Counted from the stretch's first letter, positions 41,276 through 61,429 are shown. The stretch: 64,000 nt of DNA from Candidatus Gastranaerophilaceae bacterium (GCA_031551265.1 JAVBNU010000026.1:858-64857); one strand, 5' to 3'. Notes: a model not told the origin generated them from the letters alone. Numbers and translations: made by a program.

Positions 41276-41295
41276 TCGGAACGACAGGATTTGAA
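41276..41295. repeat. att remnant: 20-nt copy of the tRNA-Pro 3' end
   Basis: TCGGAACGACAGGATTTGAA is identical to 61356-61375 and 49149-49168. Confidence 0.75.
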
Positions 41296-41402
41296 ACTCA
41301 TTCCGTGAATTACTAAAAACAAAAAAACCAGTAAAATCAAGGGTTTGGAGAAATTACATTTTCTCTGAATTGAATGTTTTACCCTTGAATTTTATGTTTT
41401 CA

Positions 41403-41419
41403 AGTACATATGAAGTACA
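41403..41419 (+). repeat. arm-type repeat, element A left arm
   Basis: AGTACATATGAAGTACA: two AGTACA hexamers 11 bp apart. Confidence 0.55.
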
Positions 41420-41620
41420 CAAAAACCTACCCTATTTCATGCGGGTTTCCATAATTATACCATATAAACTACCTACAGTCATCATTTAATCGCTTAACGA
41501 GCCTCCTACACGCGCTGTAAATATGATTATAAGTTGGTTTAGATGCACTTCACTTTTTAGCCTATATATTTTTTACTTTTTCGCCTATTTCTATTCGACA
41601 TTCCGCGGGGAGTATACTTC

Positions 41621-41702
41621 ACAAATTGCGGGTATGTCATTCGGCATTTCGCGAGGGTAATGCTTTACAAATCGCGGACATTCTACTTTACAAATCGCGG
41701 GA
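41621..41702 (+). repeat. three ACAAAT(T/C)GCGG direct repeats upstream of the ATPase gene
   Basis: Copies lie at 41621-41632, 41667-41678 and 41690-41702. The last two are CTTTACAAATCGCGG, 23 bp apart. Confidence 0.5.
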
Positions 41703-41721
41703 TTTACGATATGATAATCTT

Positions 41722-42939
41722 ATGAAAAAGCGATGGCAGGAAAAAGGAATATACAGGGCTTTACAGATAACACGTGTTGTCATGCTCTCTGGTGCGCGGC
41801 AATGCGGTAAAACAACACTTGCGAAGCACATTGTATCAAAGGATTATAAGTACGTAACGCTAGATGACCCATATATTATGGAAGCCGCCAAATTTGACCC
41901 TTCAAACTTTGTTAAGCACGACAAGAAAACCATGATAATTGACGAGATACAGCACGTTCCAGAACTAATACTAGGTATAAAAATAGCTGTAGATAACGAC
42001 AACCGCAAAGGACAATATTTAATTACAGGGTCGGCTAATATTTACAATTTACCCACTGTTAAAGAATCTTTGGCTGGGAGAATAAGTCGAGTACGTCTAA
42101 GACCCTTCGCATATGGGGAAATTGTGGGCAATCCACCCATGCTATTACAACGTCTGAAAGATAAGGATTTTATCAGTAATAAAAATTATGATAAAAAAAG
42201 TATTATGGAAATTGCTATGAGGGGTGGGTTTCCTGAACCGCTGACTTTGGGCTCGTCTAAAATTAAAGATTGGTATAAAGGTTATATTGAAACCCTTGTA
42301 ATGAAAGACCTTAGCGATATTACAAACATTAAAAGACAGGATAAACTTCAAAAATTGGTCGAAATCACAGCGGCATTTTCGTCTAAATTTATGGATAAAT
42401 CTCATGTGGCTTCAAGTTTAGGAATTTCGCGCTCAACACTGGACAGTTATTTAAACTGGCTTGAAAATATCTACCTGACAGATAGGCTACAACCATGGTA
42501 CAAGACAGATTACGAACGTGTAAGCAAGCAAAGCAAGCTGTTTATAAACGACACAGGACTAATGAGCACCATACTAAACTGGAAATTATCTGACCTTGAG
42601 TATGATGTAGACAAGCAAGGTAAGCTAATGGAGACATTTGTGTATAATCAAATTATTGCACAGATTGATTTACAGCCATATGATGTATCGTTGTATCACT
42701 ACAGGGATAGGGAGAAAAGAGAAATTGATTTTATAATAGAAACACCCGATGAGATTATAGGCATTGAGGTTAAAGCGGGTAAAGCGTTTGACAAAGGTTT
42801 CTTCAAGCACCTAAAATGGTTTAAAGCCAACTTGGCGAAGGGTAAGAAATTTTCGGGTATCATACTTTACACAGGGGAACATGCGATGTCTTTAAGTGAT
42901 GATATGCACCTTGTACCGATTAACAACTTGTGGGAGTAG
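41722..42939 (+). CDS. AAA-family ATPase (AAA_14/DUF4143-type)
   Basis: Track ORF trimmed to MKKRWQEKGIYRAL. Walker A is SGARQCGKTT and Walker B is MIIDEIQ. The C-terminal REKREIDFIIE...IGIEVKAG is typical of the DUF4143 nuclease-like tail. Confidence 0.7.
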   Translation: MKKRWQEKGIYRALQITRVVMLSGARQCGKTTLAKHIVSKDYKYVTLDDPYIMEAAKFDPSNFVKHDKKTMIIDEIQHVPELILGIKIAVDNDNRKGQYLITGSANIYNLPTVKESLAGRISRVRLRPFAYGEIVGNPPMLLQRLKDKDFISNKNYDKKSIMEIAMRGGFPEPLTLGSSKIKDWYKGYIETLVMKDLSDITNIKRQDKLQKLVEITAAFSSKFMDKSHVASSLGISRSTLDSYLNWLENIYLTDRLQPWYKTDYERVSKQSKLFINDTGLMSTILNWKLSDLEYDVDKQGKLMETFVYNQIIAQIDLQPYDVSLYHYRDREKREIDFIIETPDEIIGIEVKAGKAFDKGFFKHLKWFKANLAKGKKFSGIILYTGEHAMSLSDDMHLVPINNLWE

Positions 42940-43051
42940 CTTTTACGTCATACTTCATGGTTTGTATTTTTGATAAGTATAAACTATGAACTTAAAATAA
43001 CACGACAATTTTTATTCTCTTATTTCAGTTTCGACTGTAAAACTGAAATAA

Positions 43052-43243
43052 CTATTTTTTGTCATCATCCCCAAAGAGTCCGCTAAAAATTCCTTCAAAT
43101 ATTTTTTGAAGGATGTCCAGTCCTATCCATATCAATGCTACCACTGCTAGGAACGAAAATAGAAGATGAGCGCCACCGTATAGTTTGATTTCGCCAAACA
43201 CTAAGGTCAGGGCTATGAAAATCAGGAACCATACGAAACTCAT
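43052..43243 (-). CDS. small two-TM membrane protein (63 aa)
   Basis: It has two hydrophobic helices (FVWFLIFIALTLVF and LLFSFLAVVALIWIGL) and an acidic/basic tail (DDDKK). Confidence 0.5.
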   Translation of the reverse strand: MSFVWFLIFIALTLVFGEIKLYGGAHLLFSFLAVVALIWIGLDILQKIFEGIFSGLFGDDDKK

Positions 43244-43489: not shown

Positions 43490-43560
43490 GCTATATTCCT
43501 TTTTTAAATGTAACTTTTATCATTATACATCATTATTGATAGAGTACAACATTCATGATA

Positions 43561-43590
43561 GATAGATTTACATTTCTTAAAAAATCTATC
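43561..43590. promoter_or_regulatory. 9-bp inverted repeat in the divergent control region
   Basis: GATAGATTT-N12-AAATCTATC. Confidence 0.5.
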
Positions 43591-43597
43591 AACTATG

Positions 43598-43626
43598 TTG
43601 TACTAAATTTGCCAGTCGTGTATAGT
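43598..43626 (+). promoter_or_regulatory. sigma70-like promoter placed for a leaderless transcript
   Basis: TTGTAC-17 nt-TATAGT. The ATG at 43633 lies only 6 nt after the -10 hexamer. Confidence 0.4.
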
Positions 43627-43632
43627 GATAAT

Positions 43633-44019
43633 ATGACCAAGCACAAGCCAAAAGAATTGAATACCTTTGAAAAGAAGCTAAAAGACGACCTCGAAGAACG
43701 GTTTAAAGCGAAAGAGGTTAGCTTTTCAGTGTTTATTAATGAGTTAAGAGAGGATATGCCCACTGGCACAGAGAAGCCGAAGTTTGACGATTATAAAAAT
43801 AAATATAAAGCGGAGCGTTTGAAACTCCTACGTGCCTCATTCTCATACGACGAAGTACGGAAAATGCTTGATATAATTGGATATAGGATAGTCTTTACAG
43901 TCGCCGAGAAGACCATAACCCCCGCCAAAACCGTTTTAAAGGATATGAAAGTAAGATATACCGATGTCATGGCGGTTTGTGAGTTGCTAGGGATAGAGAT
44001 TGACTGGGTTGAAAAATAA
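43633..44019 (+). CDS. hypothetical protein, possible DNA-binding regulator
   Basis: Track ORF 43555..44019 trimmed to MTKHKPKEL. The C-terminal VCELLGIEIDWVEK resembles the end of an XRE-type HTH. Confidence 0.4.
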   Translation: MTKHKPKELNTFEKKLKDDLEERFKAKEVSFSVFINELREDMPTGTEKPKFDDYKNKYKAERLKLLRASFSYDEVRKMLDIIGYRIVFTVAEKTITPAKTVLKDMKVRYTDVMAVCELLGIEIDWVEK

Positions 44020-44354
44020 CCCACACCGCAGAGCCTTGTAAGCGCCCGATAAGACGCATTTCAGGGCTATTATATAATGTTTGGTTGACGTTATAAATGC
44101 CCTTTGGCTACGCTGAAAGCCATTTAGTGACACGCTTCTAGTCACTTTCTCATGCGTGCCGATATATTTAATATTCCCTTAAATGACCTCATAGATGGGG
44201 TTAAAGGCGCTTTCCCTGTGCGTCTATATCTTAAAAGTGGTGTTTTTTTCATTTTTCGCATGGCTCGACCGCCGTAAACAAAAAAGACATGCATACATTC
44301 TAAGTTAGGACAGTAAAAAAGGAGTTCTAATTTATGAAAAATAGAGTTGTCACT

Positions 44355-44483
44355 GTGCGGGTTGATGACAAGTTGGCGGATTTGTTAGATGAATTGCGTG
44401 ACGAACATCATATAAACATCAGTGATTTGGTTCGCCATATTTTGATGGATGCGCTTTTTGGCAGAGAGGGAAATAATAGATGA
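44355..44483 (+). CDS. ribbon-helix-helix protein (start uncertain or frame-broken)
   Basis: The open frame from 44337 reads ..NRVVTVRVDDKLADLLDELRDEHHINISDLVRHILMDALFGREGNNR. The good RBS and ATG (44333) are one frame off across an A6 run. The only in-frame start is the GTG at 44355. The stop overlaps the next ATG (ATGA). Confidence 0.45.
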   Translation: MRVDDKLADLLDELRDEHHINISDLVRHILMDALFGREGNNR

Positions 44484-45856
44484 ATTCTGTTCCCTTAAAT
44501 ACAGTTGGTGTTACTAAACATATATACCTACGCAGTATTGATATGACTAAACTAGATATTTGTGTAGGCGTAAGATACTTACTAGAGTACGTGAATAAGG
44601 TTTGTGATTCTGTTTGCATCACTGATAAAAAGAAGTATGTTAATAGGTTGTATGACCTCATCAACCTTATGGATAAGGATATTTTTAAGTATAGTGATTT
44701 TCTAAGTGAGGTTGATTTTTTAAAGAATAATGGCTTGACTTTGTATTCCTACTTGCCAAGTATAGAGCACTACATAGAGGATATAAGGACAGGTAATTTG
44801 TTTGAATCTCTTTCTATAAAGCCTTGTAGAGTTTATGGTCATAAGAAAAAGAGGTCAATCATTGATGATGAAAGTGACCTCAAACTGAATAATATTTATT
44901 TTTACTTTAATAATATATATGAAAAAATATCACCAGTTCATGCGATTAAGATTACTAAGATTATCCTATTTTTAATGATGTGTCATATATTTAAGGATAT
45001 TTCTTTATCTCATAATGTAAGATATTCATTTTTCGATTTAATTAAACCTATAGTGACTGGCTGTATTATTAATACGGACTTTGCCCTAAAAGGCAGGGTT
45101 TACAGTGATTATATGTTAGGGATGTTACAGTTGACACCCAATCACGTAGATAATAAGTTGACGATAAGAAAAAATACTAATCATCCATGTATTGAATTTC
45201 ACTACAACAATGACGAAGCTGATTTTTTGTTTCCAAGTTATGATGACATGCCTGTGAAAGATGTGAAAATGACCAATTATTTAAGGTATCTCAACGATAG
45301 GGATAACCAAAAGTCCATACCCATAACTAATTCCAGTTCATATATTACGTTAAGAGTTTATGGGGAATCCGATACCATGAAGGTGCATCTGACACTTAAG
45401 GGTATAAATATATTAAGAGAATTGCCCGAGTGTTTTACTATATTTGATATTCCCTATTCTCTCGAAGACGAAAATAATATTATACAGATGACTTATTATA
45501 TGTTCATCCTGATGTTGGAGCATACAGCGCAGCTTAGGTGGAATGAGTTTACTTATGATGTGGATGAGTTTGAAAGCCTTGCTACATATGATGAGATTGC
45601 TCTTATTAGACACCTTCAAAAGAAATACAATATAGACAGAGGCTTGTGTAGCCGTGTTATTAAGGCTATTGAACTGGCTAACCTCGCAGAAAGTGCTGTT
45701 GATGCCTACATTCGTAAGCGCTACAACTCCTGTAGCGATTCACACCAAATCCAAGACCTTAAAATGATGATTCAGGATGTGAAAGACTTTCAGGCATCTA
45801 ATCCGCCTATTAACCCTGTACAGGAGTTATACAAACGATTGGATAGTTCAAGGTAA
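44480..45856 (+). CDS. hypothetical protein (458 aa), no recognisable motif
   Basis: Long ORF with a 4-nt overlap with the upstream RHH ORF. Confidence 0.6.
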   Translation: MNSVPLNTVGVTKHIYLRSIDMTKLDICVGVRYLLEYVNKVCDSVCITDKKKYVNRLYDLINLMDKDIFKYSDFLSEVDFLKNNGLTLYSYLPSIEHYIEDIRTGNLFESLSIKPCRVYGHKKKRSIIDDESDLKLNNIYFYFNNIYEKISPVHAIKITKIILFLMMCHIFKDISLSHNVRYSFFDLIKPIVTGCIINTDFALKGRVYSDYMLGMLQLTPNHVDNKLTIRKNTNHPCIEFHYNNDEADFLFPSYDDMPVKDVKMTNYLRYLNDRDNQKSIPITNSSSYITLRVYGESDTMKVHLTLKGINILRELPECFTIFDIPYSLEDENNIIQMTYYMFILMLEHTAQLRWNEFTYDVDEFESLATYDEIALIRHLQKKYNIDRGLCSRVIKAIELANLAESAVDAYIRKRYNSCSDSHQIQDLKMMIQDVKDFQASNPPINPVQELYKRLDSSR

Positions 45857-45860
45857 GGAA

Positions 45861-47102
45861 ATGTTTTGTGAGGTAAAGGTTGACAAATTACGCTTTTGCA
45901 TAAATCGAATAAAATTACATGAACTGTTCCCATTGTTCGATATTTCGTGTATAGAGCGGAATTTAGAGCACTACTATGGGAAGATAGCGGGCAGAAAGTT
46001 CACAAAATCTGGGAATCTGATTATCGACATTACCCCCACAAGGCAGTTGAGAGAAGGGAAATACGTCAAGAACAACCTACAAATGCCCTCTGAACGAGTA
46101 TTTAACCAAGGTTTAAGCGGTATTATCCCTGATGTAGCGGTTCAAGGGATTGTGAGCATAACGAAATTACACTTAACGATTGATTTACGCTTGAGTGTAC
46201 CAACCTGTGCCTGCATAGAAATGCTATCCTGTCTTAAGTATAGGCGGCTGATAGCCCTTCAACTTTCTTCTAGTAAGCATAATGCCTCACTCTGCTTGAC
46301 TCATTCCAAACACGATATTAGGGAAAGAGACTCCACAGGAGCGCTAGTGTTCAAGTTCTACGCCAAAGAGCAGGAATACAAGGATAAACACAACTGCGAT
46401 ACCCTTGTGAATCTTAATGAACGCCTATCAGCACAGACAGCTAAGACTTTAGGAGCCTCCTATGACCGTATTAATAATACATTCGACATTGAAGGTCAAA
46501 ATCTCCTACGCGTAGAAATACAATTAGAAGACGCCAGCCAACTAAAAAAAGTTAATAAATTTCTGACCGACAATGATGGACGATTATTACTAAGCACCTT
46601 GACTGATAAAGCCAGTAACAACGTTCTTTACAGTAAGTTAGATGAGATTTTTAAGTGGTATTTAAAGGAATATGTATTTTACCGCAAGCCTGTTGCTGCA
46701 AACGAAAAATATACTGATGATGAGTTAGTCGCTGAACTACTGGAAAAGAGCGGTAGGCTTGACGTTTACAACGCTAGATTTAAAGATTTGGGAGAAGTTA
46801 AGAAATTTAAGAAATTGAGCAGTAAAATCGCTAACGTAGCCCCCACAAACCCCTTGTATAGCGAGTTATACCATTTATTATTTGATGAGCCTAACCCCAA
46901 TATCAGCACAAAAAATGAGCACGCCCAAAAGGACACTACCTCAACCGCTTTGATGGTGGTGTTTAGCGGAATTCACTCCATAGGGAAGGTGTATAGGGCA
47001 TCCATGAGAAATGTCGACGCTCGTGTGAGCGCCCTAAAGCGGTACACCCTCCCCATTGGCTACCCTGTGCCCTATTCTGTGCCGTATTGGGATGATAGTT
47101 GA
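45861..47102 (+). CDS. possible Rep_trans-type replication initiator/relaxase
   Basis: 413 aa. VDKLRFCI at the N-terminus, VFKFYAKEQE and LLRVEIQLED resemble the xYDKxxE and RxExxL blocks of Rep_trans / phage gene II-like initiators. This is from memory only. Confidence 0.35.
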   Translation: MFCEVKVDKLRFCINRIKLHELFPLFDISCIERNLEHYYGKIAGRKFTKSGNLIIDITPTRQLREGKYVKNNLQMPSERVFNQGLSGIIPDVAVQGIVSITKLHLTIDLRLSVPTCACIEMLSCLKYRRLIALQLSSSKHNASLCLTHSKHDIRERDSTGALVFKFYAKEQEYKDKHNCDTLVNLNERLSAQTAKTLGASYDRINNTFDIEGQNLLRVEIQLEDASQLKKVNKFLTDNDGRLLLSTLTDKASNNVLYSKLDEIFKWYLKEYVFYRKPVAANEKYTDDELVAELLEKSGRLDVYNARFKDLGEVKKFKKLSSKIANVAPTNPLYSELYHLLFDEPNPNISTKNEHAQKDTTSTALMVVFSGIHSIGKVYRASMRNVDARVSALKRYTLPIGYPVPYSVPYWDDS

Positions 47103-47121: not shown

Positions 47122-47652
47122 TTATTTAGGGAGACTTTCAAGAAATTTGTTCAGTTCAGGTATTCCAAAACGTATAAGCATGTCTTTAATTTCAGCTGTT
47201 TTTGTAGGGTCATAATGAACACCTAATGATTTCTTGGAACGTTCCGAACCAAGTTCAAAGCTTGTTATATAATTAAATATACTAAAATCTATGTATGATT
47301 TTACTTGATTTAGTACATCATATGGAACACCGTACATTAAAAGAGCAGAATCCAAGGACTTTATTTTATCTGTGTTTTTTTTATCATTCAAGGTCTTAAC
47401 GGCAAGTAATTCCAAGAACGCATCCGAGGACAAGCCTAAAGCCTTCGCAAGAGAGACTAATGTATATATATTGGGCATTTTATTATTATAATTTTCTAAT
47501 GCTGATATAGCCCCTGTGCTAACACCTGATTCCTTTGATAGCTTGTCGGTTGACCAACCTAACTCATCGCGCTTCATTTTTATGGTGCCGCCAATGCCCT
47601 TGATTATACATTTAAGCTCTGTTTCTAGTAGTTCCTGCTGTGTTTTATCCAT
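47122..47652 (-). CDS. XRE/CI-like HTH repressor
   Basis: Track ORF trimmed to MDKTQQ after GGAGGG. The HTH is WSTDKLSKESGVSTGAISALENYNN. It is divergent from xis-int. Confidence 0.7.
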   Translation of the reverse strand: MDKTQQELLETELKCIIKGIGGTIKMKRDELGWSTDKLSKESGVSTGAISALENYNNKMPNIYTLVSLAKALGLSSDAFLELLAVKTLNDKKNTDKIKSLDSALLMYGVPYDVLNQVKSYIDFSIFNYITSFELGSERSKKSLGVHYDPTKTAEIKDMLIRFGIPELNKFLESLPK

Positions 47653-47765
47653 TTTAAGCCCTCCATGCCTTTTATTATACCACAAGCTTCATTGAAAATT
47701 ACATATTCGTTAAAAAGTTGAAGATTCAACTTATATTCATTATAAAATACGTATTCTTTAAAAGG

Positions 47766-47832: not shown

Positions 47833-48033
47833 ATGACCCCAAACTTAGGATTAATTACATTAAAACAAGCAAGTGACTTGTTTCCAGACAAACCTTGTGA
47901 AGCGACAATCAGAACATGGAAGCGCAGGGAAGACCTACCACCATTTATTTTTAAGAAAATAGGCGGTACGGTGTACGTCATCTTAAATAAACTGGTTGAA
48001 TGGATTGAAAACCCAACACAGGACGCAGCATGA
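47833..48033 (+). CDS. excisionase/AlpA-like small DNA-binding protein
   Basis: 66 aa lying immediately upstream of, and overlapping, the integrase gene by 4 nt. Sequence: ITLKQASDLF....TIRTWKRR. Confidence 0.6.
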   Translation: MTPNLGLITLKQASDLFPDKPCEATIRTWKRREDLPPFIFKKIGGTVYVILNKLVEWIENPTQDAA

Positions 48034-54189: not shown

Positions 54190-54437
54190 ACTCCCATAAA
54201 CAGCTAGTTATACCTATATAAACCTAAGCTAAACATAATAATAACAAGCCTTAACAAGTCTCTTAAACTCAAATAGCCCTTCAATAATACCACACACTAA
54301 ATCGGCGCCCTTGTATTTTTGTTAATATTAATACCACTTAAGCAAAGATAGGATTTATTTCAATAGTTATACTATAAAATTATTTCACTTGAATTGATAG
54401 GAACATGCAGGCAGAAAAATACGAAAGGTTATAAATT

Positions 54438-54905
54438 ATGAATAAGAATAAAAACTCTACCGAAGGTGTATTTTGGGAAATTGTATTTGCTACCACTGTC
54501 ATTGTCATCGGAGCTTGTTTGGTGATTTATTATTTGGGCTACATACATGGCAAGAATAAATTCTTTAATTCAAGATATGAAGATGGATTCTATAATTGTG
54601 ATAAACTGTGGAAAGACCAAATAAAGAAAAAAGAAGAAGAGCAAAAGAAACAAATAACTAAAGACACTAAATTAATCTTGTATTATACAAGCAAAAGTTT
54701 TCCTGAAGTCAACACTACTAAATATACACTATATAATGATAATCTAAAACTGTCTGCTTCATACAATGTTAATGAAGGAAATGGTAAAAGTGATTATTCA
54801 AATAATATTTATTACAATGAAAATGATTTAATACTCAATATGCTAAAGAATGATATAGCAAAACAATTAACAGAAAAGTTTGTTATTGAAAGAGTTAATG
54901 AGTAA
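54438..54905 (+). CDS. N-terminally membrane-anchored protein (155 aa)
   Basis: One TM helix (VFWEIVFATTVIVIGACLVIYYLGY) followed by a Lys/Glu-rich linker. Confidence 0.5.
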   Translation: MNKNKNSTEGVFWEIVFATTVIVIGACLVIYYLGYIHGKNKFFNSRYEDGFYNCDKLWKDQIKKKEEEQKKQITKDTKLILYYTSKSFPEVNTTKYTLYNDNLKLSASYNVNEGNGKSDYSNNIYYNENDLILNMLKNDIAKQLTEKFVIERVNE

Positions 54906-55016
54906 TTACAAAATTACAAAAATTACGTTAATTTTTTAAGTTTAAAAAATTCGTTTTTATTATTTTTTTATTTTAATTTTTAAAAGTTTTGTGTAATTTT
55001 CGTAATTTTGTAATTT
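54903..55016. repeat. iteron-like inverted arrays of AATTAC (candidate element ori/operator)
   Basis: AATTAC occurs at 54903, 54911 and 54920, and GTAATT at 54993, 55002 and 55010. A pure A/T spacer separates them. Related GTAATTTTTGTA recurs near 56265. Confidence 0.5.
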
Positions 55017-55067
55017 TTATTCGTTTTTAAATTTAATATGGTATAATTGGCTTGGAAGGTAGTTTTA

Positions 55068-56168
55068 ATGAAAAAATTTAAGTTATTGCCAATAGATATA
55101 GGTTTTGATGATAGTTGTGTAACTCTGCCATACAGACAAGAAGCACAAGAGCTTTTCTTGTTGCTTGATAAGTATGGCAAAGATTTTAAAGATATTGATA
55201 ATGAAGAAATCAACGAACCTAATAATAATTTGATTAATAATTTGGTTAACTCCCTTGATAGCCTGAATGAACTTGAATTCATTATTGCCTTAAAAAAAGT
55301 ACAAAAATTAAATAAATTTTATCCCATAACAATTAGCTTTAATAGAGATTTAGGAAAGCATTACAAGAATTTTGCCAAAGTAACCGCAGCCCTCAAAAGT
55401 TCTTCCTCCTTTGCGGATATAGTAAAAATGCTTGAAAGTAATTTTGATGATACGACAGATGAATTCATATCGTACATCAATGGTTTTAATTATTTATTGA
55501 GCCTCTTTAAGTATGATACTAAAGAATTTCGGGAGTATTTAAAGCATTACAGGCGAAGTAAGTATATTTTGAACTACAGCAGCACTTTTGACTATTTAAA
55601 CTGGCATCTTGAACAAGATTTATTTGGTGAATTAAGAGATATTGGAAAGGCTAAAAGAGCTGTTAATGTTGAAATATTTAACTTTATGACTGCTAAAAAA
55701 ATTGGCACCATACAAATAATAATCAATTTACAAACTGCAAAAAATGAATACACAGAGGATACCTACCAGATTGGTTTTAAGTCTGCAAACATTGAATATA
55801 GATACATTAAAGCCGAATGGATAGAAAAATATGGCAAAGCATTAGTTGATGATTTTACTGAAAAATCTAAGACATATGCTAAAAAAGAATTAAGCCGTAA
55901 TGTTACTGAAATATTGGAAGCACGATTGAGTACATTTGAGGATTTGATTCAGTTTCAGAAAGATTTGATTGCGTTACATAATGATTGTTATAAAAAAGAA
56001 ATTTATAAAAACAAGTGCCAACACAAGATAAATAGCCATTCAAAACCTTGTGGCAAAGAATTTTTAACCTATGATAAACGTACCCCCTTCTGTTGTGAGT
56101 GTGTAGAAAAATCGAATTTAAATGCCCAAAGAACAAGAATGCACAGAGAGCGAAAAGCAAGAAAATAA
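55068..56168 (+). CDS. hypothetical protein with a C-terminal Cys4 zinc-ribbon and basic tail
   Basis: Track ORF trimmed to the ATG at 55068 (GGAAGG RBS, with an extended -10 TGGTATAAT at 55039-47). The C-terminus is CQHK..PCGKEF...FCCECVEK...RMHRERKARK. Confidence 0.55.
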   Translation: MKKFKLLPIDIGFDDSCVTLPYRQEAQELFLLLDKYGKDFKDIDNEEINEPNNNLINNLVNSLDSLNELEFIIALKKVQKLNKFYPITISFNRDLGKHYKNFAKVTAALKSSSSFADIVKMLESNFDDTTDEFISYINGFNYLLSLFKYDTKEFREYLKHYRRSKYILNYSSTFDYLNWHLEQDLFGELRDIGKAKRAVNVEIFNFMTAKKIGTIQIIINLQTAKNEYTEDTYQIGFKSANIEYRYIKAEWIEKYGKALVDDFTEKSKTYAKKELSRNVTEILEARLSTFEDLIQFQKDLIALHNDCYKKEIYKNKCQHKINSHSKPCGKEFLTYDKRTPFCCECVEKSNLNAQRTRMHRERKARK

Positions 56169-56455: not shown

Positions 56456-59311
56456 ATGGCAAAAAAATCAAAACTACAATTAAGTGAAGAACTTGTAATC
56501 GAAAAATTTGGACAACCAAAGGAAATCAAAAATGGCGAATGGATTTATCCATGTCCTTGTTGTTTAGATGAAGGCGGTGACAGTGACCACGACCATCTAA
56601 AAATCAACATTGCAAAAGGTTTTATAACCTGTTTTGCCAATCCGGAACATTCAAAAGAACTGGTAAAACAATACTTTGAAAACTTTGAGTCAGAGCCCAA
56701 AGTTTCTACTGGTGACCTTGAGGTAAGTCATGAAAAAGTACACTTAATGCACAATGAACTAAAAAACAACAAAGACGCTATGGAGCTTTTGTATTCAAAA
56801 GGTTACAATGAACAGACAATAAATAAAATGCAAATCGGACTTTATTGTGGCGATTGGTTTGTTTTACCTATGATAACACTTGATAATCAACTTGTTGGTT
56901 ATGAGTTCAGACATAGTAATAATTTCAAATTTTCCCATAAATCCAAAGGCTATGCTGATGATGAGCGGAAAACTTTGTGCCTGATTAATGATTCTGGCAA
57001 ACAAGAAAATCTACTTGTCATGGCAGGATTCAAAGACGGACATGTTATGTGGCGTTATCTTCAAGAATCAGGCAATCTTTTAGACTACACAGTTGTAACA
57101 GCTAGTAATGGCGAGGCAAATACATTAAGAGCTCTAAACGCAAACTCTGGTTTTGTTAAGAAATTCAAAAAAATAATTATTTGTTTGGACAAAGATAAAA
57201 CAGGTAAAGCCAGTACAAGGAAGATTGCTCTTGAGTTAGGTCTGCCTGTGCATGAATTAAAGCTACCATTTCTTAAAAACGAGGAAGATAAAAAATTCAA
57301 AGATTTTACGGATTGGTATAATCTTGCAAAAGAAATCGATTATAACGCTTCTATTTTGCCTGAAAAAGTAAAGCTTATACCTGAAAGTCGTATCAATAAA
57401 TGTATTAGTAATGAAGATACTCTAAATAAAGCTAAACTTGTTGATATATCTAAATTATCAGGAGTTCAGGCGGGTATTTACCCAACAAAATACGGTTATT
57501 ATGAGGTCTATTACAAAGGACAAGACAATGAAAAAGCTTACTTAATAAGAAAAACTAATTTTACTTTTCACATCACACGAGAAGTAATCAGTAATAATAA
57601 TAAATTTGATTTTGAAAAAGCACACAAGCTTGAACTTCACACTAGTATCAACGGAATAAAGACAAAATCTGTCATATTTTCACCTGATGATTTAACAAAA
57701 CCAGAAAAAATATCTGAAATTCTCAAAACAAACGGTATCCATTTTTCTTGTTTAAGTGCAAACGAACTCAAAAGCGTTTTAGAAACTGAATACCGAGATT
57801 GCAACCGCATTTTGCATATATTTGAAAACCCGGGTACTGCAAAAGTAGGTGACAACGAATATTGGCTATATAAAAATGCTTGTGTTATTACTACCACTGG
57901 TGAAATTGTCTTAGCACAAAAAGATTCTTTGATGAGGCAAGGTGTAATCAAATTAGACAATGATTGCGAAATGGCGCTTGAACCGACAAAAGGAATGCAT
58001 GCACCGGTATTGCCTGATGAAATTAAACTTGAATCTATGCTCAAAAAGTATAAATATCTCGAAGAAACTGCAAATTTATACAAAAGTATGCATGAAAAGT
58101 CGCCTGATTCGATTAATATTCTTACATCAGCTTTAATACGAAATACTTTAGAGTCATATAATGGAAGCATTGAACCATTTATGTTGCTTGGCAATATAAT
58201 TATGTCTCCTGCCATAGACACTGTTTATGAAGAAATTACAGGCTACCCTGTCAGCTATGCTTATGGTGAAGCACGTAGCGGTAAAAGTAATATTTTAACA
58301 CTCGGTGCAAAAATCTATGGATACAAGAGCAACTATCTAAGTGGTGGCAATGATACCAGTAACAATTTAATGCATAATATGGAATATTATAGCAAAACAC
58401 CCATATTATTCTCCGAAATAGAAGCTAATATAAGAAAGCGTTTTTCTGAAAATGTTAAGGCTTTATATGACCGCATACCTAGAAAACTGATGAAAGCATA
58501 CGGCGAAAATCAGAATATCAAAGCTATCAATGGGACTATTCACTTCGCTACAAATGATATGATTCCTAAAAATGAACAAACAATGTCCCGTTTGATTTTT
58601 ACCGAATTTAAACAAAATAATTTTGACTATACAAAAGCAATACCTTTCAACAGTGTACGAGATGATTTAATAGGTTTAATTTTGCCGCAAATGTTGCCCT
58701 TTCTTAATCATAAAAAATATATTGAGACTTTATTACGCAAAAACATTCTTGAAATCAAATTGCTTAAAGCAGAAAGTAAGTTGCAAATTGATGATAGAAG
58801 TGCTAACAACATTGCAGTTGCAAAAACAGGAATTGATTTATTATTCATAGTTGCAGGGATAGATTTGACAAATGCAAACAATGAAATAAAGCAAATGTTG
58901 GCAAATTATAAAGCTTATCTTGCTCAATATGCAGGTTTGGTTGAAACAAAAGACCATTTCGTCACATTCATGGAAATTCTTACAGAATTATTCAAGCAAG
59001 ACAGACCTGCATCAGGGAAAGATTATAAACTTTATAATGGAGGATTGGCAATTTATCTTAAACCAATAATGCCGGCATTCCGTGAAATCTTAAAGCGAAC
59101 CAGTGAACCCAACACATATATCCCTACAGAAACAGAAATCAAACATGCTGCAGAAAAACACGGATGTGAAACCAATTATAATGTTGATTTCTCAGGAAAA
59201 ACCAGACGGGCATTAGTTATTCCTAAAGATGTTGAGGGTGTGGATTACATAATATCCATAATAGGAACCACACCTGAAGAACAACAAAAATGTGCTGGCA
59301 AAGTGATATAG
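56456..59311 (+). CDS. bifunctional primase-helicase (zinc finger + Toprim + P-loop NTPase)
   Basis: 951 aa with a GGAGG RBS. It has an N-terminal CPCC...HDH Zn-binding region, a Toprim-like IIICLDKDKTGK, and Walker A GEARSGKSN with ILFSEIE. Confidence 0.7.
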   Translation: MAKKSKLQLSEELVIEKFGQPKEIKNGEWIYPCPCCLDEGGDSDHDHLKINIAKGFITCFANPEHSKELVKQYFENFESEPKVSTGDLEVSHEKVHLMHNELKNNKDAMELLYSKGYNEQTINKMQIGLYCGDWFVLPMITLDNQLVGYEFRHSNNFKFSHKSKGYADDERKTLCLINDSGKQENLLVMAGFKDGHVMWRYLQESGNLLDYTVVTASNGEANTLRALNANSGFVKKFKKIIICLDKDKTGKASTRKIALELGLPVHELKLPFLKNEEDKKFKDFTDWYNLAKEIDYNASILPEKVKLIPESRINKCISNEDTLNKAKLVDISKLSGVQAGIYPTKYGYYEVYYKGQDNEKAYLIRKTNFTFHITREVISNNNKFDFEKAHKLELHTSINGIKTKSVIFSPDDLTKPEKISEILKTNGIHFSCLSANELKSVLETEYRDCNRILHIFENPGTAKVGDNEYWLYKNACVITTTGEIVLAQKDSLMRQGVIKLDNDCEMALEPTKGMHAPVLPDEIKLESMLKKYKYLEETANLYKSMHEKSPDSINILTSALIRNTLESYNGSIEPFMLLGNIIMSPAIDTVYEEITGYPVSYAYGEARSGKSNILTLGAKIYGYKSNYLSGGNDTSNNLMHNMEYYSKTPILFSEIEANIRKRFSENVKALYDRIPRKLMKAYGENQNIKAINGTIHFATNDMIPKNEQTMSRLIFTEFKQNNFDYTKAIPFNSVRDDLIGLILPQMLPFLNHKKYIETLLRKNILEIKLLKAESKLQIDDRSANNIAVAKTGIDLLFIVAGIDLTNANNEIKQMLANYKAYLAQYAGLVETKDHFVTFMEILTELFKQDRPASGKDYKLYNGGLAIYLKPIMPAFREILKRTSEPNTYIPTETEIKHAAEKHGCETNYNVDFSGKTRRALVIPKDVEGVDYIISIIGTTPEEQQKCAGKVI

Positions 59312-59320
59312 GGGGTAATT

Positions 59321-59512
59321 ATGGATAACTTATTAAATATCCCTGAAACAGCTAGATGTCTTCGTGTTTCGCTAAGCACCCTTTATAGATGGGTGCACCA
59401 AAAGAAGATACAGCATGTCAAAATCGGCTCCAGAGTCTTATTTTCAGAAAAACATCTCCTAGAGTTTCTTGATAGAAACACAATCATACCAAAAGGGGCA
59501 GGTCAATATTAA
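59321..59512 (+). CDS. excisionase-family HTH protein
   Basis: 63 aa. IPETARCLRVSLSTLYRWVHQKKIQHVKIGSRVLF matches the excisionase/MerR-like HTH_17 pattern. Confidence 0.75.
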   Translation: MDNLLNIPETARCLRVSLSTLYRWVHQKKIQHVKIGSRVLFSEKHLLEFLDRNTIIPKGAGQY

Positions 59513-59659
59513 AACCCGGCACTACAAGAGCACCGTAGCATAATTGGCACGGTGCTCCGGCGCCCCTCTTAACCCCAAAGACAAGTTAGCAAAAGTTAGC
59601 ATACAGGCTCGCGAATAGGCAGCAACACGTTAAAATCAATATAGAAAGGCATAATACAA

Positions 59660-60787
59660 GTGGCAAAAGTATTCAAACGCAAATGGAAAAATAGAAAAGG
59701 TGAAGGCTCGACCTGGGCTTTCACTTATTCTGATACTTTTGGCAAACGCAAGATTGAAAGCGGCTTTGATACTAAAGCAGAAGCCGAAACAGAGCTTTCT
59801 AAGCGCCTTCAAGAAGTTGACAACGGAATGTATCAAGAGGTTAACAAGTCTCTCACCTTCGCTCAACTCGCTGAAAAGTTTATGAATCACTATGCTAAGC
59901 TACATCTTGAACAATCAACTTATGACACACATGAAACCAATTTGCGGGTGCATTTAATGCCTATATTTGGCAAAATGAAGATTTTAGATATCACAACGAG
60001 TACAATTAATGAGTTTATCGTATTGAAAAAAGATTGTACAAATCTCTCAAACGCAACCATAAATAAGATTGTAGCACTTTTAAAAAATATTTTCTCAAAT
60101 GCTTATCAAGATGGTATAATCAATCGCAACCCTTCTTTAAGAGTCAAAAAGCTCAAAGAAGCAAAGCCTGAACAGTTATTTTTGACAAAGAAAGAAGTTG
60201 ATGCGGTGCTTGAAGCTGCAAAGCAACATTATCCTGATTTCTTCCCCCTTTTGTTCTGTGCGGTATCAACAGGCGCCAGGCAAGGCGAGTTATTTGCACT
60301 CACATGGGACAAAATTAATTTTGTTGAGGACTATATTAAAATTGACCGCAGTGTATATAAAGAAAAGTTCAAAGCACCCAAAACGCTATCATCTATTAGA
60401 AAAATATACATTAGTGATGAATTGATTAAAATTTTGAAGTCATGGCGTCTGCGCTGCCCTCACAGCGAACTTAACCTTGTGTTCCCCAATAAGGTCGGTG
60501 GGTTTATGGACGGACATAATATGAGGAACCGTGAATTTAGTGCTGTTTTAAGGCGTGCAGGAGTGACACGGGTGCGATTTCATGACCTTAGACATACATT
60601 TGCAAGTCTGTTAATTACAAACGGTGCTAACATTAAATATGTTCAAAATCAACTAGGCCACGCCACAACTGATATGACATTAAATACATACTCGCACTTG
60701 ATGCCTGAATCTATTGATGAAGGTGTGCAAATTATGAATGGTATTTTTAGTTCGAAAGATAATGATGTCAGGAAGTTTGGGACGTAG
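59660..60787 (+). CDS. int: tyrosine site-specific integrase
   Basis: 375 aa with a GTG start. Motifs are TGARQGEL, HDLRHTFASL and GHATTDMTLNTYSHL. Confidence 0.9.
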   Translation: MAKVFKRKWKNRKGEGSTWAFTYSDTFGKRKIESGFDTKAEAETELSKRLQEVDNGMYQEVNKSLTFAQLAEKFMNHYAKLHLEQSTYDTHETNLRVHLMPIFGKMKILDITTSTINEFIVLKKDCTNLSNATINKIVALLKNIFSNAYQDGIINRNPSLRVKKLKEAKPEQLFLTKKEVDAVLEAAKQHYPDFFPLLFCAVSTGARQGELFALTWDKINFVEDYIKIDRSVYKEKFKAPKTLSSIRKIYISDELIKILKSWRLRCPHSELNLVFPNKVGGFMDGHNMRNREFSAVLRRAGVTRVRFHDLRHTFASLLITNGANIKYVQNQLGHATTDMTLNTYSHLMPESIDEGVQIMNGIFSSKDNDVRKFGT

Positions 60788-60860
60788 AGAATTAATATTA
60801 TTAAAATAATTGGTTTTGCATTAATAATTTTGTTTTTTACTTATGTTAAAATAAGGTTAA

Positions 60861-61244
60861 ATGGAATTAGGAAATCATTATATGGAAAAATTTTTACCTT
60901 ATGTAACTGCAATCATAGCCATTCTAGGTTTTGTATTTTCTGTTTGGAAATATATTGATTTGAAGAACAGGGAAGAAAAACGTTTAAACTATGAAAACTA
61001 TAGTAAAATCATTCAAAATTTAAAAGGTGAACTAAACCATAATACTGAAATGGTCTTTTTAGAAGGTTCATTTTATGTGGCAAATGTATATAAATTATTG
61101 GAATTTCCTGAATATAAATATATTTCGATTCCATTGTTAAATTTAAAGAAAGAAACTCTTAGTGTAGAAAATGAAAAACAATTAAAACACATAGAAATGG
61201 CTATCGACGACGTTCTTAAAAAGTTAACTCTTTTGAAAAAATAA
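60861..61244 (+). CDS. hypothetical membrane-anchored protein (127 aa)
   Basis: One TM helix (YVTAIIAILGFVFSVW). An alternative start is at 60882. Confidence 0.4.
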   Translation: MELGNHYMEKFLPYVTAIIAILGFVFSVWKYIDLKNREEKRLNYENYSKIIQNLKGELNHNTEMVFLEGSFYVANVYKLLEFPEYKYISIPLLNLKKETLSVENEKQLKHIEMAIDDVLKKLTLLKK

Positions 61245-61252
61245 AATCATTT

Positions 61253-61271
61253 TGCAACAATTTTGCAACAA
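61253..61271 (+). repeat. arm-type repeat, element B right arm
   Basis: TGCAACAATTTTGCAACAA has the same 11-bp-spaced TGCAACAA pair as 49321-49339. Confidence 0.55.
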
Positions 61272-61355
61272 AATCGCTTTTTTGGCAAATTTTAGGCTGA
61301 AATGCAAAGAGTTGCAAAATGCTTAAAGCTATGTCTTGCAACTCTTTTAACAATT

Positions 61356-61429
61356 TCGGAACGACAGGATTTGAACCTGCGACCCCTACCACCCCAAGGT
61401 AGTACGCTACCAAGCTGCGCCACGTCCCG
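61356..61429 (-). tRNA. tRNA-Pro (anticodon GGG)
   Basis: Hand-folded 74 nt: CGGGACG-TG-GCGC-AGCTTGGTA-GCGT-A-CTACC-TTGGGGT-GGTAG-GGGTC-GCAGG-TTCAAAT-CCTGT-CGTTCCG-A. G37 and the TTCAAAT T-loop are present. CCA is not encoded. Confidence 0.85.

What the first reader, a model, noticed from the sequence alone, without database searches (positions are those of the whole stretch)
41276..61429. Two different integrative elements stacked in tandem at a single tRNA-Pro(GGG) gene
The 3' 42 nt of the tRNA (61356-61397) recur exactly at 49149-49190, and the first 20 nt recur again at 41276-41295. Each interval ends on its tRNA-proximal side with its own Xis and tyrosine integrase (47833-49052 and 59321-60787). 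Each element also has a private pair of 11-bp-phased direct repeats present in both of its arms. Element A has AGTACA-N5-AGTACA at 41403 and 49081. Element B has TGCAACAA-N3-TGCAACAA at 49321 and 61253. That is the layout expected for arm-type integrase binding sites, so both elements may still be excision-competent. The shorter outer att copy suggests element A arrived first and is the more decayed of the two.
Basis: partly seen in the sequence, partly recalled or inferred. Interest (0 to 1): 0.7.

Follow-up and report, generated by a model that had tools for sequence, protein, structure and literature searches.

The report
Two tandem islands at tRNA-Pro
Two unrelated small mobile islands, each with its own integrase, excisionase and integrase-docking repeats, sit head to tail at one proline tRNA gene of an uncultured gut bacterium and carry anti-phage genes; this is real and well supported, but it is an ordinary, already known kind of arrangement.

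Summary
A tRNA-Pro(GGG) gene lies at 61355-61430 (-). Its 3' 42 nt recur at 49149-49190 and its 3' 20 nt at 41276-41295. Each interval carries an Xis/AlpA-like gene and a tyrosine integrase with the catalytic residues I could place intact, and the two integrases are only about 25% identical.

The two 11-bp-phased repeat pairs occur nowhere else in the window. Comparative data support them as arm-type sites. Relatives of IntB at tRNA-Val and tRNA-Ala keep TGCAACAA-N3-TGCAACAA about 100 nt from the tRNA. The complete relative at tRNA-Val carries the pair in both arms. Relatives of IntA, including phage contigs in attP form, keep RRTACAY-N4-RRTACAY or another phased pair on both sides of the core.

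The "A is older and decayed" inference is not supported. The 20-nt and 42-nt blocks end exactly at the first base of the T loop and of the anticodon loop, the two canonical crossover sublocations. Either order of arrival gives this layout.

Element B (12.2 kb) carries RosmerTA, SoFic and a primase/helicase-like gene. Element A (7.9 kb) carries a PDC-S01 ATPase and two near-orphan genes. Excision was not testable. Verdict: new members of a known kind; modest interest.

The parts
41276..41295 (-). Outer att copy. It is the int-distal junction of element A: a displaced 20-nt 3' fragment of tRNA-Pro running from the first T-loop base to the discriminator.
   Evidence: Exact 20-mer, 3 copies in the window, 0.01 expected. 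Read directly. tRNA positions mapped.
41403..41420 (+). Arm-type site pair of element A in the int-distal (P') arm: AGTACATATGAAGTACAC, two 11-bp-phased RGTACAY units.
   Evidence: The same architecture is seen in attP of clade relatives L037, L038, L039 and L035.
41626..42939 (+). Element A cargo: an AAA_14/DUF4143 ATPase that matches the PADLOC candidate defence family PDC-S01.
   Evidence: Pfam 2e-37 and 4e-27. PADLOC PDC-S01 4e-131.
43555..44019 (+). 154-aa ORF of element A. Besides xis and int it is the only gene shared with an IntA-family relative (35% identity to L031).
   Evidence: tblastn 8e-18. No family hit.
44334..47102 (+). Rightward operon of element A: a 49-aa RHH regulator (44334-44483), a 458-aa ORF (44480-45856) and a 413-aa ORF (45861-47102). 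The two large ORFs are near-orphans of unknown function.
   Evidence: RHH_1 is precomputed and matches phrog_876. The 413-aa ORF has no homologue among 5.8 billion proteins. The 458-aa ORF has only 2 weak relatives among 1.84 billion representatives. AF2 pLDDT was 34-36.
47122..47685 (-). HTH_3 repressor-like regulator of element A, transcribed divergently from xis-int.
   Evidence: Pfam HTH_3 9e-10. PHROG transcriptional repressor families. A promoter-like TTGACT-17-TATAGT site at 47766-47794 faces xis.
47833..48033 (+). XisA, an AlpA/excisionase-type HTH whose stop overlaps the intA start.
   Evidence: HTH_17 5e-4. phrog_66 9e-4. Syntenic homologues annotated HTH_17 lie upstream of IntA relatives.
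48030..49052 (+). IntA, a 340-aa tyrosine integrase. Recognisable motifs are Arg I (LRQGN), HDLRR, SHS and ERY. It has a conserved 56-aa N-terminal domain.
   Evidence: PF00589 3e-23. phrog_1 2e-58. Alignment to XerA 5hxy. Family alignment. The N-terminus is 57-70% identical to relatives against 30-44% for the rest.
49081..49098 (+). Arm-type site pair of element A in the int-proximal (P) arm: AGTACATATGCAGTACAC.
   Evidence: RRTACAY-N4-RRTACAY is found only directly downstream of IntA-family int genes in 458 kb of fetched DNA.
49102..49142 (+). Terminator-like inverted repeat (AAAAAATTACCACC ... GGTGGTAATTTTTT) between the arm site and the core. A hairpin sits at the same place in relatives.
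   Evidence: Read directly. Equivalent hairpins occur in L031, L032, L051 and L037.
49149..49190 (-). Middle att copy. Its first 20 nt form the int-proximal junction of A, and the whole 42 nt form the int-distal junction of B (a displaced fragment running from the first anticodon-loop base to the discriminator).
   Evidence: Positions mapped.
49321..49339 (+). Arm-type site pair of element B in the int-distal (P') arm: TGCAACAAAAATGCAACAA.
   Evidence: The homologous site TGAAACAAATTTGCAACAA lies in the same arm of the tRNA-Val relative.
49637..51585 (+). RosmerTA-type defence gene pair: RmrT (DUF5986, 49637-50413) and RmrA (HTH + M78 peptidase, 50422-51585).
   Evidence: PADLOC RmrT 3e-41 and RmrA 5e-156. 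Pfam DUF5986, Peptidase_M78 and HTH_3.
51628..52722 (-). Fic-domain protein matching the SoFic defence family.
   Evidence: PADLOC SoFic 2e-54. Pfam Fic 1e-20.
52892..53334 (.). Conserved regulatory module of the B family. It comprises a 76-aa ORF (+, 52892-53122) and a 71-aa HTH repressor-like gene (-, 53119-53334; 84.5% identical to relatives) that faces the rightward operon.
   Evidence: tblastn against L020-L027. The relatives' gene carries HTH_3/HTH_19.
53455..56168 (+). Four ORFs of unknown function (114, 122, 155 and 373 aa) at the head of B's rightward operon. They are not shared with relatives.
   Evidence: No hit in Pfam, PHROGs, NCBIfam, PADLOC (155- and 373-aa ORFs only) or PDB sequences (373-aa ORF only), and none in relatives' loci.
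56456..59311 (+). 951-aa primase/helicase-like protein with weak Toprim and DUF927 matches. It is the putative replication module of B.
   Evidence: phrog_239 DNA primase/helicase 2e-18 and phrog_1139 2e-6. Weak Toprim_2 and DUF927. Relatives carry a different 885-aa Toprim or 616-aa protein at this position.
59321..59512 (+). XisB, an AlpA/excisionase-type HTH_17 protein, 71-75% identical to relatives.
   Evidence: HTH_17 2e-15. phrog_66 4e-9..
59660..60787 (+). IntB, a 375-aa tyrosine integrase with an N-terminal arm-binding domain. Recognisable motifs are ARQGE, PKT, HDLRH, GHA and TYSH.
   Evidence: PF00589 3e-26 and Arm-DNA-bind_4 4e-5. Alignment to Tn1549 Int 6emy. Family alignment.
60861..61244 (+). 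127-aa ORF in a variable slot between intB and the tRNA. Relatives carry other small ORFs there.
61253..61271 (+). Arm-type site pair of element B in the int-proximal (P) arm: TGCAACAATTTTGCAACAA.
   Evidence: It is the only invariant block in the aligned int-proximal arms of four elements at three different tRNAs.
61308..61349 (+). Terminator-like hairpin (AGAGTTGCAA ... TTGCAACTCT followed by TTTT). It explains the extra TTGCAA motifs, which are not additional arm sites.
   Evidence: Read directly. Relatives have a hairpin at the same place.
61355..61430 (-). Intact tRNA-Pro(GGG). Its 3' 42 nt (61356-61397) form the int-proximal junction of B.

Best explanation
The interval 41276-61397 is a tandem array of two unrelated site-specific integrative islands at the 3' end of one tRNA-Pro(GGG) gene. 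The host is an uncultured bacterium, probably a member of the Gastranaerophilales/Melainabacteria.

Element A (41296-49148, 7.9 kb) uses a lambda-type (heterobivalent) tyrosine integrase that crosses over in the T loop, giving a 20-nt identity block. Element B (49191-61355, 12.2 kb) uses a distantly related integrase (about 25% identity) that crosses over in the anticodon loop, giving a 42-nt identity block. Each incoming element supplied a copy of the tRNA 3' end, so the gene stays intact and the displaced fragments mark the island ends.

Each integrase is inferred to bind two kinds of DNA. Its catalytic and core-binding domains would bind the tRNA-derived core. Its conserved N-terminal domain would bind the pair of 11-bp-phased direct repeats in both arms: RGTACAY for A and TGCAACAA for B. 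Together with the AlpA-type Xis encoded just upstream, this would assemble the intasome that decides between integration and excision.

In both elements an HTH repressor-like gene faces the operon that contains xis and int. In B that operon also contains a primase/helicase-like gene. Derepression is therefore expected to trigger excision, and in B replication as well.

Both islands carry anti-phage cargo at the int-distal end: PDC-S01 in A, and RosmerTA plus SoFic in B.

What is shown here: the anatomy, the domain content, the conservation of the arm sites across relatives with other tRNA targets, and the foreign base composition. What is inferred: DNA binding, the regulatory logic, present-day excision competence and defence activity.
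For: The att copies are exact and in the same orientation. The identity blocks end at the first base of the T loop (61375) and of the anticodon loop (61397). These are the recognised crossover subsites (PMC4383910).

There are two integrases plus two Xis genes. Both integrases are full length with recognisable catalytic motifs.

B family: relatives 57-63% identical sit in the same geometry (replication gene, xis, int, small ORFs, tRNA on the minus strand) at tRNA-Val(GAC) and tRNA-Ala(TGC). L020 is a complete 9.8-kb element bounded by a 49-nt direct repeat, with TGCAACAA-N3-TGCAACAA in both arms. This motif is the only invariant block of the int-proximal arm across four elements.

A family: RRTACAY-N4-RRTACAY is found only just downstream of IntA-family int genes in 458 kb of fetched DNA. 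Phage contigs in attP form show phased repeat pairs on both sides of the core, and the motif changes with the integrase: L037 AGTACAT/GGTACAT, L038 GTCGGGAAAA, L039 GGGACACA. L035 has an attP-like junction, whereas L034 has the integrated junction with the identical integrase. L051 is a single clade element at an identical tRNA-Pro(GGG), with the same TTTTACAGAA junction.

The N-terminal domains are more conserved than the rest of the proteins. IntA against P0128 is 70% versus 30%, and IntB against P0002 is 85% versus 59%.

Tetranucleotide distance to the rest of the window is 0.0238 for A and 0.0163 for B. Same-size host chunks reach at most 0.0159 and 0.0141. B's GC is 0.328, below every host chunk.

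Six of seven metagenome contigs with the identical tRNA have no IntA- or IntB-like integrase on its 3' side.
Against: No direct evidence of mobility exists for these two copies. The exact proteins occur in one sample only. No syntenic empty site was found. No reads were available to look for attP or attB junctions.

IntA has no Pfam arm-binding hit, so its N-terminal domain is assigned by position and conservation only.

IntA's closest relatives (44-46% identity; L031, L034, L035) have 44-49-nt identity blocks that reach the anticodon loop. A T-loop crossover for IntA is therefore a change within the clade. A deletion that happened to end at the T-loop edge cannot be strictly excluded.

Neither element has a recognised transfer or packaging function, so how they move between cells is unknown.
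Confidence: 0.85

Rival explanations
1. The array is real, but one or both elements are fixed remnants that can no longer excise. This applies especially to element A, which may have lost part of its distal att site by deletion, as the first reader's "decayed" reading proposes.
For: A's outer att copy is 20 nt, whereas IntA's nearest relatives have 44-49-nt blocks. A has no recognisable replication or transfer gene, and its central genes are near-orphans. No junction evidence is available.
Against: The 20-nt block is perfect and ends exactly at the first T-loop nucleotide, a canonical crossover subsite. No degraded similarity follows it. IntA, XisA, the repressor and both arm-site pairs are intact. 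The 18-nt arm units differ at only one base between the arms.
Confidence: 0.25
2. Element B, and possibly A, is a phage satellite in the manner of PICI or P4: it excises, replicates with its own primase and is packaged by a helper phage. It is not merely a passive genomic island.
For: B has the typical satellite core of int, AlpA-type xis, a primase/helicase-like gene and a repressor switch. It is 12 kb with no structural genes. Its defence cargo matches what satellites often carry. The IntA clade includes integrases of T7-like phage contigs with near-identical arm sites and a 70%-identical N-terminal domain.
Against: No capsid-redirecting, terminase-small-subunit or cos/pac-related gene was recognised in PHROGs or Pfam. 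IMG/VR holds no close relative of IntA or IntB themselves. The replication genes are not conserved within the B family.
Confidence: 0.3
3. The tandem layout is an assembly artefact. Two islands from different strains or loci were joined through the shared 42-nt tRNA fragment in a metagenome-assembled contig.
For: The source is a MAG contig. The independent k=31 Logan contigs of the same sample break inside the att copies (L001 ends at window 49174 and L018 at 61385), so they do not confirm the joins.
Against: A 42-nt repeat is shorter than ordinary reads and the final k of standard assemblers, so the junction A-arm/core/B-arm should only be built if reads span it. Breaks at k=31 are expected for any repeat of 31 nt or more and say nothing either way. 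Tandem arrays are also seen in relatives (L031).
Confidence: 0.05
4. The repeats are chance matches, and the recombinases are unrelated housekeeping or phage-remnant genes.
For: None beyond the small size of the arm motifs.
Against: Searches give the chance expectations. The position-specific conservation of the motifs across independent relatives argues strongly against chance.
Confidence: 0.01

Closest known systems
Tandem arrays of tRNA-gene-integrated genomic islands as catalogued by Islander/TIGER (Hudson, Lau & Williams 2015, PMC4383910)
   Same: There is an intact tDNA plus co-oriented displaced 3' fragments. Each island has its own fragment and its own tyrosine integrase next to the tRNA-proximal end. 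The crossover subsites are the anticodon loop and the T-loop/T-stem region.
   Different: The host is an uncultured, probably melainabacterial, lineage. The two members of this array use two different subsites of the same tRNA. The integrases are only 36-63% identical to anything else found here.
Lambda-type heterobivalent integrases with arm-type sites (lambda and HK022, L5, P22, HP1, Tn916/Tn1549; from my own knowledge, except that the PDB hit 6emy is the Tn1549 Int)
   Same: The protein has an N-terminal arm-binding domain plus core-binding and catalytic domains. Direct-repeat arm sites lie in both the P and P' arms about 50-130 bp from the core. An Xis of the AlpA/HTH_17 type is encoded next to int. 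As with lambda and HK022, relatives keep the arm specificity while changing the core (tRNA) specificity.
   Different: The layout is very simple: one pair of 11-bp-phased repeats per arm in the same orientation. Binding has not been shown. IntA's N-terminal domain matches no Pfam arm-binding family.
Phage satellites and primase-encoding islands (P4-like, PICI; from my own knowledge)
   Same: Element B has int, AlpA-type xis, a primase/helicase-like gene, a repressor switch, a small size and defence cargo.
   Different: No capsid-size redirection, packaging or helper-sensing genes were recognisable, and no helper is known. Only the switch, xis and int are conserved within the family.
RosmerTA and SoFic anti-phage systems (Millman et al. 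2022, bioRxiv 10.1101/2022.05.11.491447; PADLOC models)
   Same: RmrT (DUF5986) is adjacent to RmrA (HTH + M78 peptidase), and a Fic-domain protein is present. All three have strong HMM matches.
   Different: They are carried as cargo of a tRNA-integrated island in an uncultured lineage. Their activity is untested.

Membership tests
Tandem tDNA-integrated genomic islands (Islander criteria) | An intact tRNA gene plus cognate 3' fragments in the same orientation on the same replicon | tested here: met
   the tRNA lies at 61355-61430 (-), with a 42-nt fragment at 49149 and a 20-nt fragment at 41276, all in the same orientation.
Tandem tDNA-integrated genomic islands (Islander criteria) | [quoted passage not shown] | tested here: met
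   IntA lies at 48030-49052 and IntB at 59660-60787. They are about 24-26% identical to each other's families. Each lies at the tRNA-proximal end of its interval.
Tandem tDNA-integrated genomic islands (Islander criteria) | Foreign origin or variable presence: an empty site in relatives, or atypical base composition | tested here: inconclusive
   The composition is atypical. Identical tRNA-Pro genes without an adjacent IntA- or IntB-like integrase occur in 6 of 7 metagenome contigs, but their flanks are not syntenic. No true empty site of this locus was found.
Heterobivalent (lambda-type) tyrosine integrases | A catalytic domain with R-K-HxxR-H/W-Y | tested here: met
   IntB shows ARQGE, PKT, HDLRH, GHA and TYSH. 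IntA shows LRQGN, HDLRR, SHS and ERY; its catalytic Lys was not placed.
Heterobivalent (lambda-type) tyrosine integrases | An N-terminal arm-type DNA-binding domain | tested here: inconclusive
   IntB matches Arm-DNA-bind_4 at 4e-5, 23.5 bits against a cut-off of 22.3, so the feature is met for B. IntA has no Pfam hit. Its N-terminal 56 aa are the most conserved part of the family, which is suggestive only.
Heterobivalent (lambda-type) tyrosine integrases | Arm-type repeats distinct from the core, present in both arms and conserved with the integrase | tested here: met
   B-family conservation at three tRNAs is.
Heterobivalent (lambda-type) tyrosine integrases | Demonstrated binding of the N-terminal domain to the arm sites, and Xis-dependent excision | not testable with these tools
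   This needs EMSA or footprinting and in vivo excision assays.
Phage satellites (PICI / P4-like) | A core of int, xis/alpA and primase-replication genes under a repressor | tested here: met
   This holds for element B only. Element A has no recognisable replication gene.
Phage satellites (PICI / P4-like) | Genes for hijacking helper capsids or packaging, and dependence on a helper phage | tested here: not met
   No PHROG or Pfam hit to packaging, capsid or redirection functions was found in any ORF. Helper dependence is not testable here.
Prophage | Virion structural and lysis genes | tested here: not met
   PHROGs scans of the ORFs tested in both elements give only integration, regulation and primase hits. 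The sizes are 7.9 and 12.2 kb.
ICE / IME | A relaxase, oriT, a type IV coupling protein or a T4SS | tested here: not met
   No such Pfam or NCBIfam hit was found. An unrecognised oriT cannot be excluded.
RosmerTA defence system | Adjacent RmrT and RmrA genes | tested here: met
   PADLOC RmrT 3e-41 (49637-50413) and RmrA 5e-156 (50422-51585), adjacent on the same strand. Anti-phage activity was not tested.
SoFic defence system | A single Fic-domain protein matching the SoFic model | tested here: met
   PADLOC SoFic 2e-54 and Pfam Fic 1e-20. Activity was not tested.

The most novel reading that the evidence does not exclude
The IntB-type elements could be an undescribed family of satellite-like defence islands of gut Melainabacteria. 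In that family only a repressor switch, Xis, Int and the TGCAACAA arm code are kept, while the tRNA target, the replication gene and the defence cargo are swapped freely.

Element A could be a satellite of integrase-bearing T7-like temperate phages. It shares their arm-binding domain (70% identity) and their arm-site sequence, so the helper's Int/Xis machinery could act on the island's arms in cross-talk.
Probability: 0.1. Interest if true: 0.55.

Novelty: new member of a known kind. Interest (0 to 1): 0.3.

Why it matters
The finding gives a precisely delimited pair of integrative islands in a poorly studied, uncultured gut lineage, with att cores, arm-type sites, Xis and Int all located. It is a clean natural example of two integrases using two different crossover positions (T loop and anticodon loop) in the same tRNA gene.

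The comparative data show arm-site specificity being retained while the tRNA target changes. That is useful for predicting att sites, and for mining integrases with their complete attP as genome-engineering tools for organisms that lack genetic systems.

The islands also add RosmerTA, SoFic and PDC-S01 to the mobile defence repertoire of this lineage. None of this changes current understanding, because tandem tRNA islands and arm-type sites are textbook features.

Tried and rejected
The following attempts led nowhere or ruled something out.

- **Empty site through flanking genes.** The P-II-like protein gave no relatives in 185,579 reference genomes. NhaB gave 16 loci of at most 73% identity, none with a tRNA-Pro nearby, so no syntenic comparison was possible.
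- **Exact-protein look-ups.** The left flanking gene and both integrases were found only in Logan sample SRR23967709, in contigs that break inside the att repeats; the right flanking gene is not on record. These are not informative about junctions.
- **Exact empty-site junction.** A search for the left flank joined to the intact tRNA found 0 hits in JGI metagenomes.
- **Direct IMG/VR scans.** IntA, IntB and P0122 gave no relatives. Only P0128 gave phage contigs.
- **Function of the unknown ORFs.** Pfam, PHROGs, NCBIfam, PADLOC (four of the seven unknown ORFs) and PDB-sequence searches (three of them) found nothing. The 413-aa ORF has no homologue at all, and the 458-aa ORF has two weak ones. 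Single-sequence AlphaFold models had pLDDT 34-36 and were not used for fold search.
- **Extra TTGCAA motifs at 61308-61345.** I considered these as additional arm sites and rejected the idea. They are the two strands of a 10-bp terminator-like hairpin that relatives also have at that place.
- **Order of arrival from the layout.** I considered deducing it and rejected this, because both orders give the same structure.
- **ORFs 53150-53353 (+) and 49164-49424 (+).** These are probably spurious. The first is antisense to the conserved 71-aa HTH gene. The second runs across the att copy.

Full report
**Observation**

ARAGORN and Rfam find a single tRNA in the window, tRNA-Pro(GGG), on the minus strand at 61355/6-61429/30. 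The 20-mer TCGGAACGACAGGATTTGAA occurs exactly three times, at 41276, 49149 and 61356, in the same orientation; 0.01 matches are expected by chance. Reading the sequence shows that 49149-49190 equals 61356-61397 over 42 nt and diverges at the next base. The outer copy diverges after 20 nt, and no degraded similarity follows it.

The pattern AGTACA-N5-AGTACA, with up to one mismatch, occurs only at 41403 and 49081. TGCAACAA-N3-TGCAACAA, with up to two mismatches, occurs only at 49321 and 61253. About 0.2 matches are expected in each case. All four sites lie inside their own element, 52-131 nt from an att core.
- A 127-aa ORF lies between intB and the tRNA.
- The A repeat is better described as an 18-nt unit, AGTACATATGMAGTACAC.

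**Gene content of element A (41296-49148, 7.9 kb)**

Element A encodes the following:
- an AAA_14/DUF4143 ATPase that matches the PADLOC candidate family PDC-S01 (4e-131);
- two small minus-strand ORFs;
- a 154-aa ORF;
- an RHH protein;
- a 458-aa and a 413-aa ORF;
- an HTH_3 repressor-like gene on the minus strand;
- divergently from that gene, behind a promoter-like site, a 66-aa HTH_17-like Xis whose stop overlaps the start of a 340-aa tyrosine integrase.

The 413-aa ORF has no homologue among 5.8 billion proteins. The 458-aa ORF has two weak relatives among 1.84 billion representatives. Single-sequence structure models were useless.

**Gene content of element B (49191-61355, 12.2 kb)**

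Element B encodes the following:
- RmrT and RmrA (RosmerTA; 3e-41 and 5e-156);
- a SoFic-type Fic protein (2e-54);
- a conserved 76-aa ORF and a 71-aa HTH gene on the minus strand;
- a rightward operon of four unknown ORFs;
- a 951-aa primase/helicase-like protein (phrog_239, 2e-18);
- an HTH_17 Xis (2e-15);
- a 375-aa integrase with an Arm-DNA-bind_4 domain;
- a 127-aa ORF.

Both integrases are full length with recognisable catalytic motifs: Arg I, HxxR, the third His and Tyr in both, plus the Lys in IntB. They are only about 25% identical to each other's families.

No virion, packaging, relaxase or T4SS gene was recognised. Neither element is therefore a prophage or a recognisable ICE/IME.

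**Host and composition**

The rest of the window is housekeeping: GlmS, CarB, ValRS, an Asp/Asn-tRNA synthetase, a PLD-family enzyme and NhaB. Names attached to IntB homologues point to Melainabacteria/Gastranaerophilales.

The tetranucleotide distance of A (0.0238) and of B (0.0163) to the rest of the window exceeds that of every same-size host chunk (maxima 0.0159 and 0.0141). B's GC of 0.328 is below every host chunk (0.357-0.394). A's GC of 0.368 equals the host's.

**Comparative evidence for element B**

IntB has hundreds of homologues. Contigs encoding the closest ones (57-63% identity) show the same geometry of replication gene, xis, int, one or two small ORFs, then a tRNA on the minus strand. 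The tRNAs differ, however: Val(GAC) in L020-L022 and Ala(TGC) in L023-L029.

L020 and L021 contain a complete 9.8-kb element bounded by a 49-nt direct repeat of the tRNA-Val 3' end. TGCAACAAATTTGCAACAA lies 98 nt before the tRNA-side repeat, and TGAAACAAATTTGCAACAA lies 119 nt after the distal repeat. The tRNA-Ala elements have the exact motif 102-104 nt before the tRNA.

When the four int-proximal arms are aligned, this motif is the only invariant block. The int-distal arms of B and L020 are about 75% identical, with the motif best conserved. The N-terminal 62 residues of IntB are 85% identical to P0002 against 59% for the rest.

Only the 71-aa HTH gene (84.5%), the 76-aa ORF, xis (71-75%) and int are shared. 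The replication gene and the cargo differ: a type I R-M system with an SLFN/AlbA_2-domain gene in L023, and nothing comparable within the element in L020.

**Comparative evidence for element A**

IntA has only nine homologues below 1e-20. In all contexts I retrieved, a pair of 11-bp-phased repeats follows the int stop codon, then a hairpin, then the tRNA 3' end:
- L032-L034: GGTACATAATGGATACAT before tRNA-Phe.
- L031: GGTACACTATGGGTACAC before a partial tRNA.
- L036: AGTACATATTCGATACAT.

The degenerate motif RRTACAY-N4-RRTACAY occurs nowhere else in 458 kb of fetched DNA on either strand.

L035 encodes the identical integrase to L034. After a 49-nt core it leaves the tRNA-Phe sequence and carries a second repeat pair about 80 nt further on. 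That is an attP-like or tandem junction.

IMG/VR phage contigs with clade integrases are in attP form, with a pair on each side of the core, and the motif changes with the integrase:
- L037: AGTACATATTTGATACAT, then the tRNA-Ala 3' part, then AGTACACTATAGGTACAT.
- L038: GTCGGGAAAA twice on both sides.
- L039: GGGACACA twice on one side and GGGACA twice on the other.

IntA's N-terminal 56 residues are 70% identical to P0128 while the rest is 30% identical. This matches their near-identical arm motif and their different tRNA targets.

L051 comes from a termite-gut metagenome. It has an identical tRNA-Pro(GGG) occupied by a single clade element, with ATTACACAAA twice, a hairpin and the same TTTTACAGAA junction as element A. 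Six other contigs with the identical tRNA show no IntA- or IntB-like integrase on its 3' side.

**What the two att lengths mean**

The Rfam alignment places the T loop at 61375-61369 and the anticodon loop at 61397-61391. A's identity block (61356-61375) begins at the first T-loop nucleotide. B's block (61356-61397) begins at the first anticodon-loop nucleotide.

Islander recognises the anticodon loop and the T-loop/T-stem region as the standard crossover subsites, and it lists 125 tandem arrays among 3919 islands (PMC4383910). The shorter outer copy therefore reflects a different crossover position, not erosion.

The order of arrival cannot be read from the layout:
- If A entered first, B could only use the regenerated tRNA.
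- If B entered first, A could use either the tRNA or the displaced 42-nt fragment, which still contains the whole T arm. Insertion into the fragment gives exactly the observed structure.

One caveat remains. IntA's nearest relatives have 44-49-nt blocks. T-loop use would therefore be a change within the clade, and a deletion that ended by coincidence at the loop edge cannot be strictly excluded.

**Mechanism (inferred)**

Each Int would bind the tRNA-derived core with its C-terminal domains and the phased arm repeats with its N-terminal domain. The adjacent AlpA-type Xis would direct excision. An HTH repressor facing the xis-int operon (which in B also includes the replication gene) would keep the element quiescent.

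The middle att copy serves both elements, so each can in principle excise alone. A would recombine 41276-41295 with 49149-49168. B would recombine 49149-49190 with 61356-61397. How either element moves between cells is unknown. B has the core of a phage satellite but no recognisable hijacking genes.

**Limits**

No reads, no syntenic empty site and no junction sequences were available. Present-day mobility and the correctness of the MAG assembly across the 42-nt repeat therefore remain unverified. The independent k=31 contigs break inside the repeats, as expected for a repeat of that length.

**Verdict**

The finding is real, and its central interpretation is correct. The arm-site proposal is strongly supported by conservation. 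The "older and decayed" inference is not supported. This is a new member of a well-known kind of arrangement, of modest interest.

Noticed in passing
window 52697-52769: There are five copies of GTCATTAA. Two pairs are 11-bp phased (52718/52729 and 52751/52762), and the array straddles the start codon of the SoFic gene. The relative contig L021 has a 10-bp periodic CTAATNNTAT array (1736-1825) at the start of its own Fic gene. This may be an operator or iteron array.
   Followed up: no
window 44480-47102: Two large adjacent ORFs of element A (458 and 413 aa) are near-orphans. The 413-aa protein has no homologue among 5.8 billion proteins, and the 458-aa protein has only two weak relatives. Single-sequence AlphaFold models had pLDDT 34-36.
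   Followed up: partly
L036 1-11205; L037 1-4703: Phage contigs carry an IntA-clade integrase with an attP next to it. L036 has T7-like genes (T7-type primase-helicase, DNA pol A, endonuclease I). The integrase N-terminus is 70% identical to IntA, while the rest is only 30% identical.
   Followed up: partly
L031 7000-7736: An IntA-family element is followed by a partial tRNA fragment. A second element then begins, with its own phased repeat (AGTGTCCCATA twice) and another integrase gene. This is another tandem array in the clade.
   Followed up: no
L021 691-2379: In the tRNA-Val relative, a Fic gene 26% identical to B's lies just outside the 49-nt distal att repeat. A further element may be stacked there, but the locus ends too soon to tell.
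   Followed up: no
window 27416-29209 (-): A 597-aa low-complexity protein rich in T, Q, N, P and K has no Pfam match. It accounts for the strong AT-skew dip at 28-29 kb.
   Followed up: no
window 49174 (end of Logan contig L001): The k=31 Logan contig coming from element A stops 4 nt earlier than the repeat structure predicts (49178). The contig coming from element B stops exactly where predicted (61385). A minor variant may be present in the sample.
   Followed up: no
P0122, P0123 (IntA relatives; alignment A5): These two integrases have Lys in place of the first His of the HxxR motif (PKDIRR), whereas IntA and the phage relatives have FHDLRR/FHDLRH.
   Followed up: no
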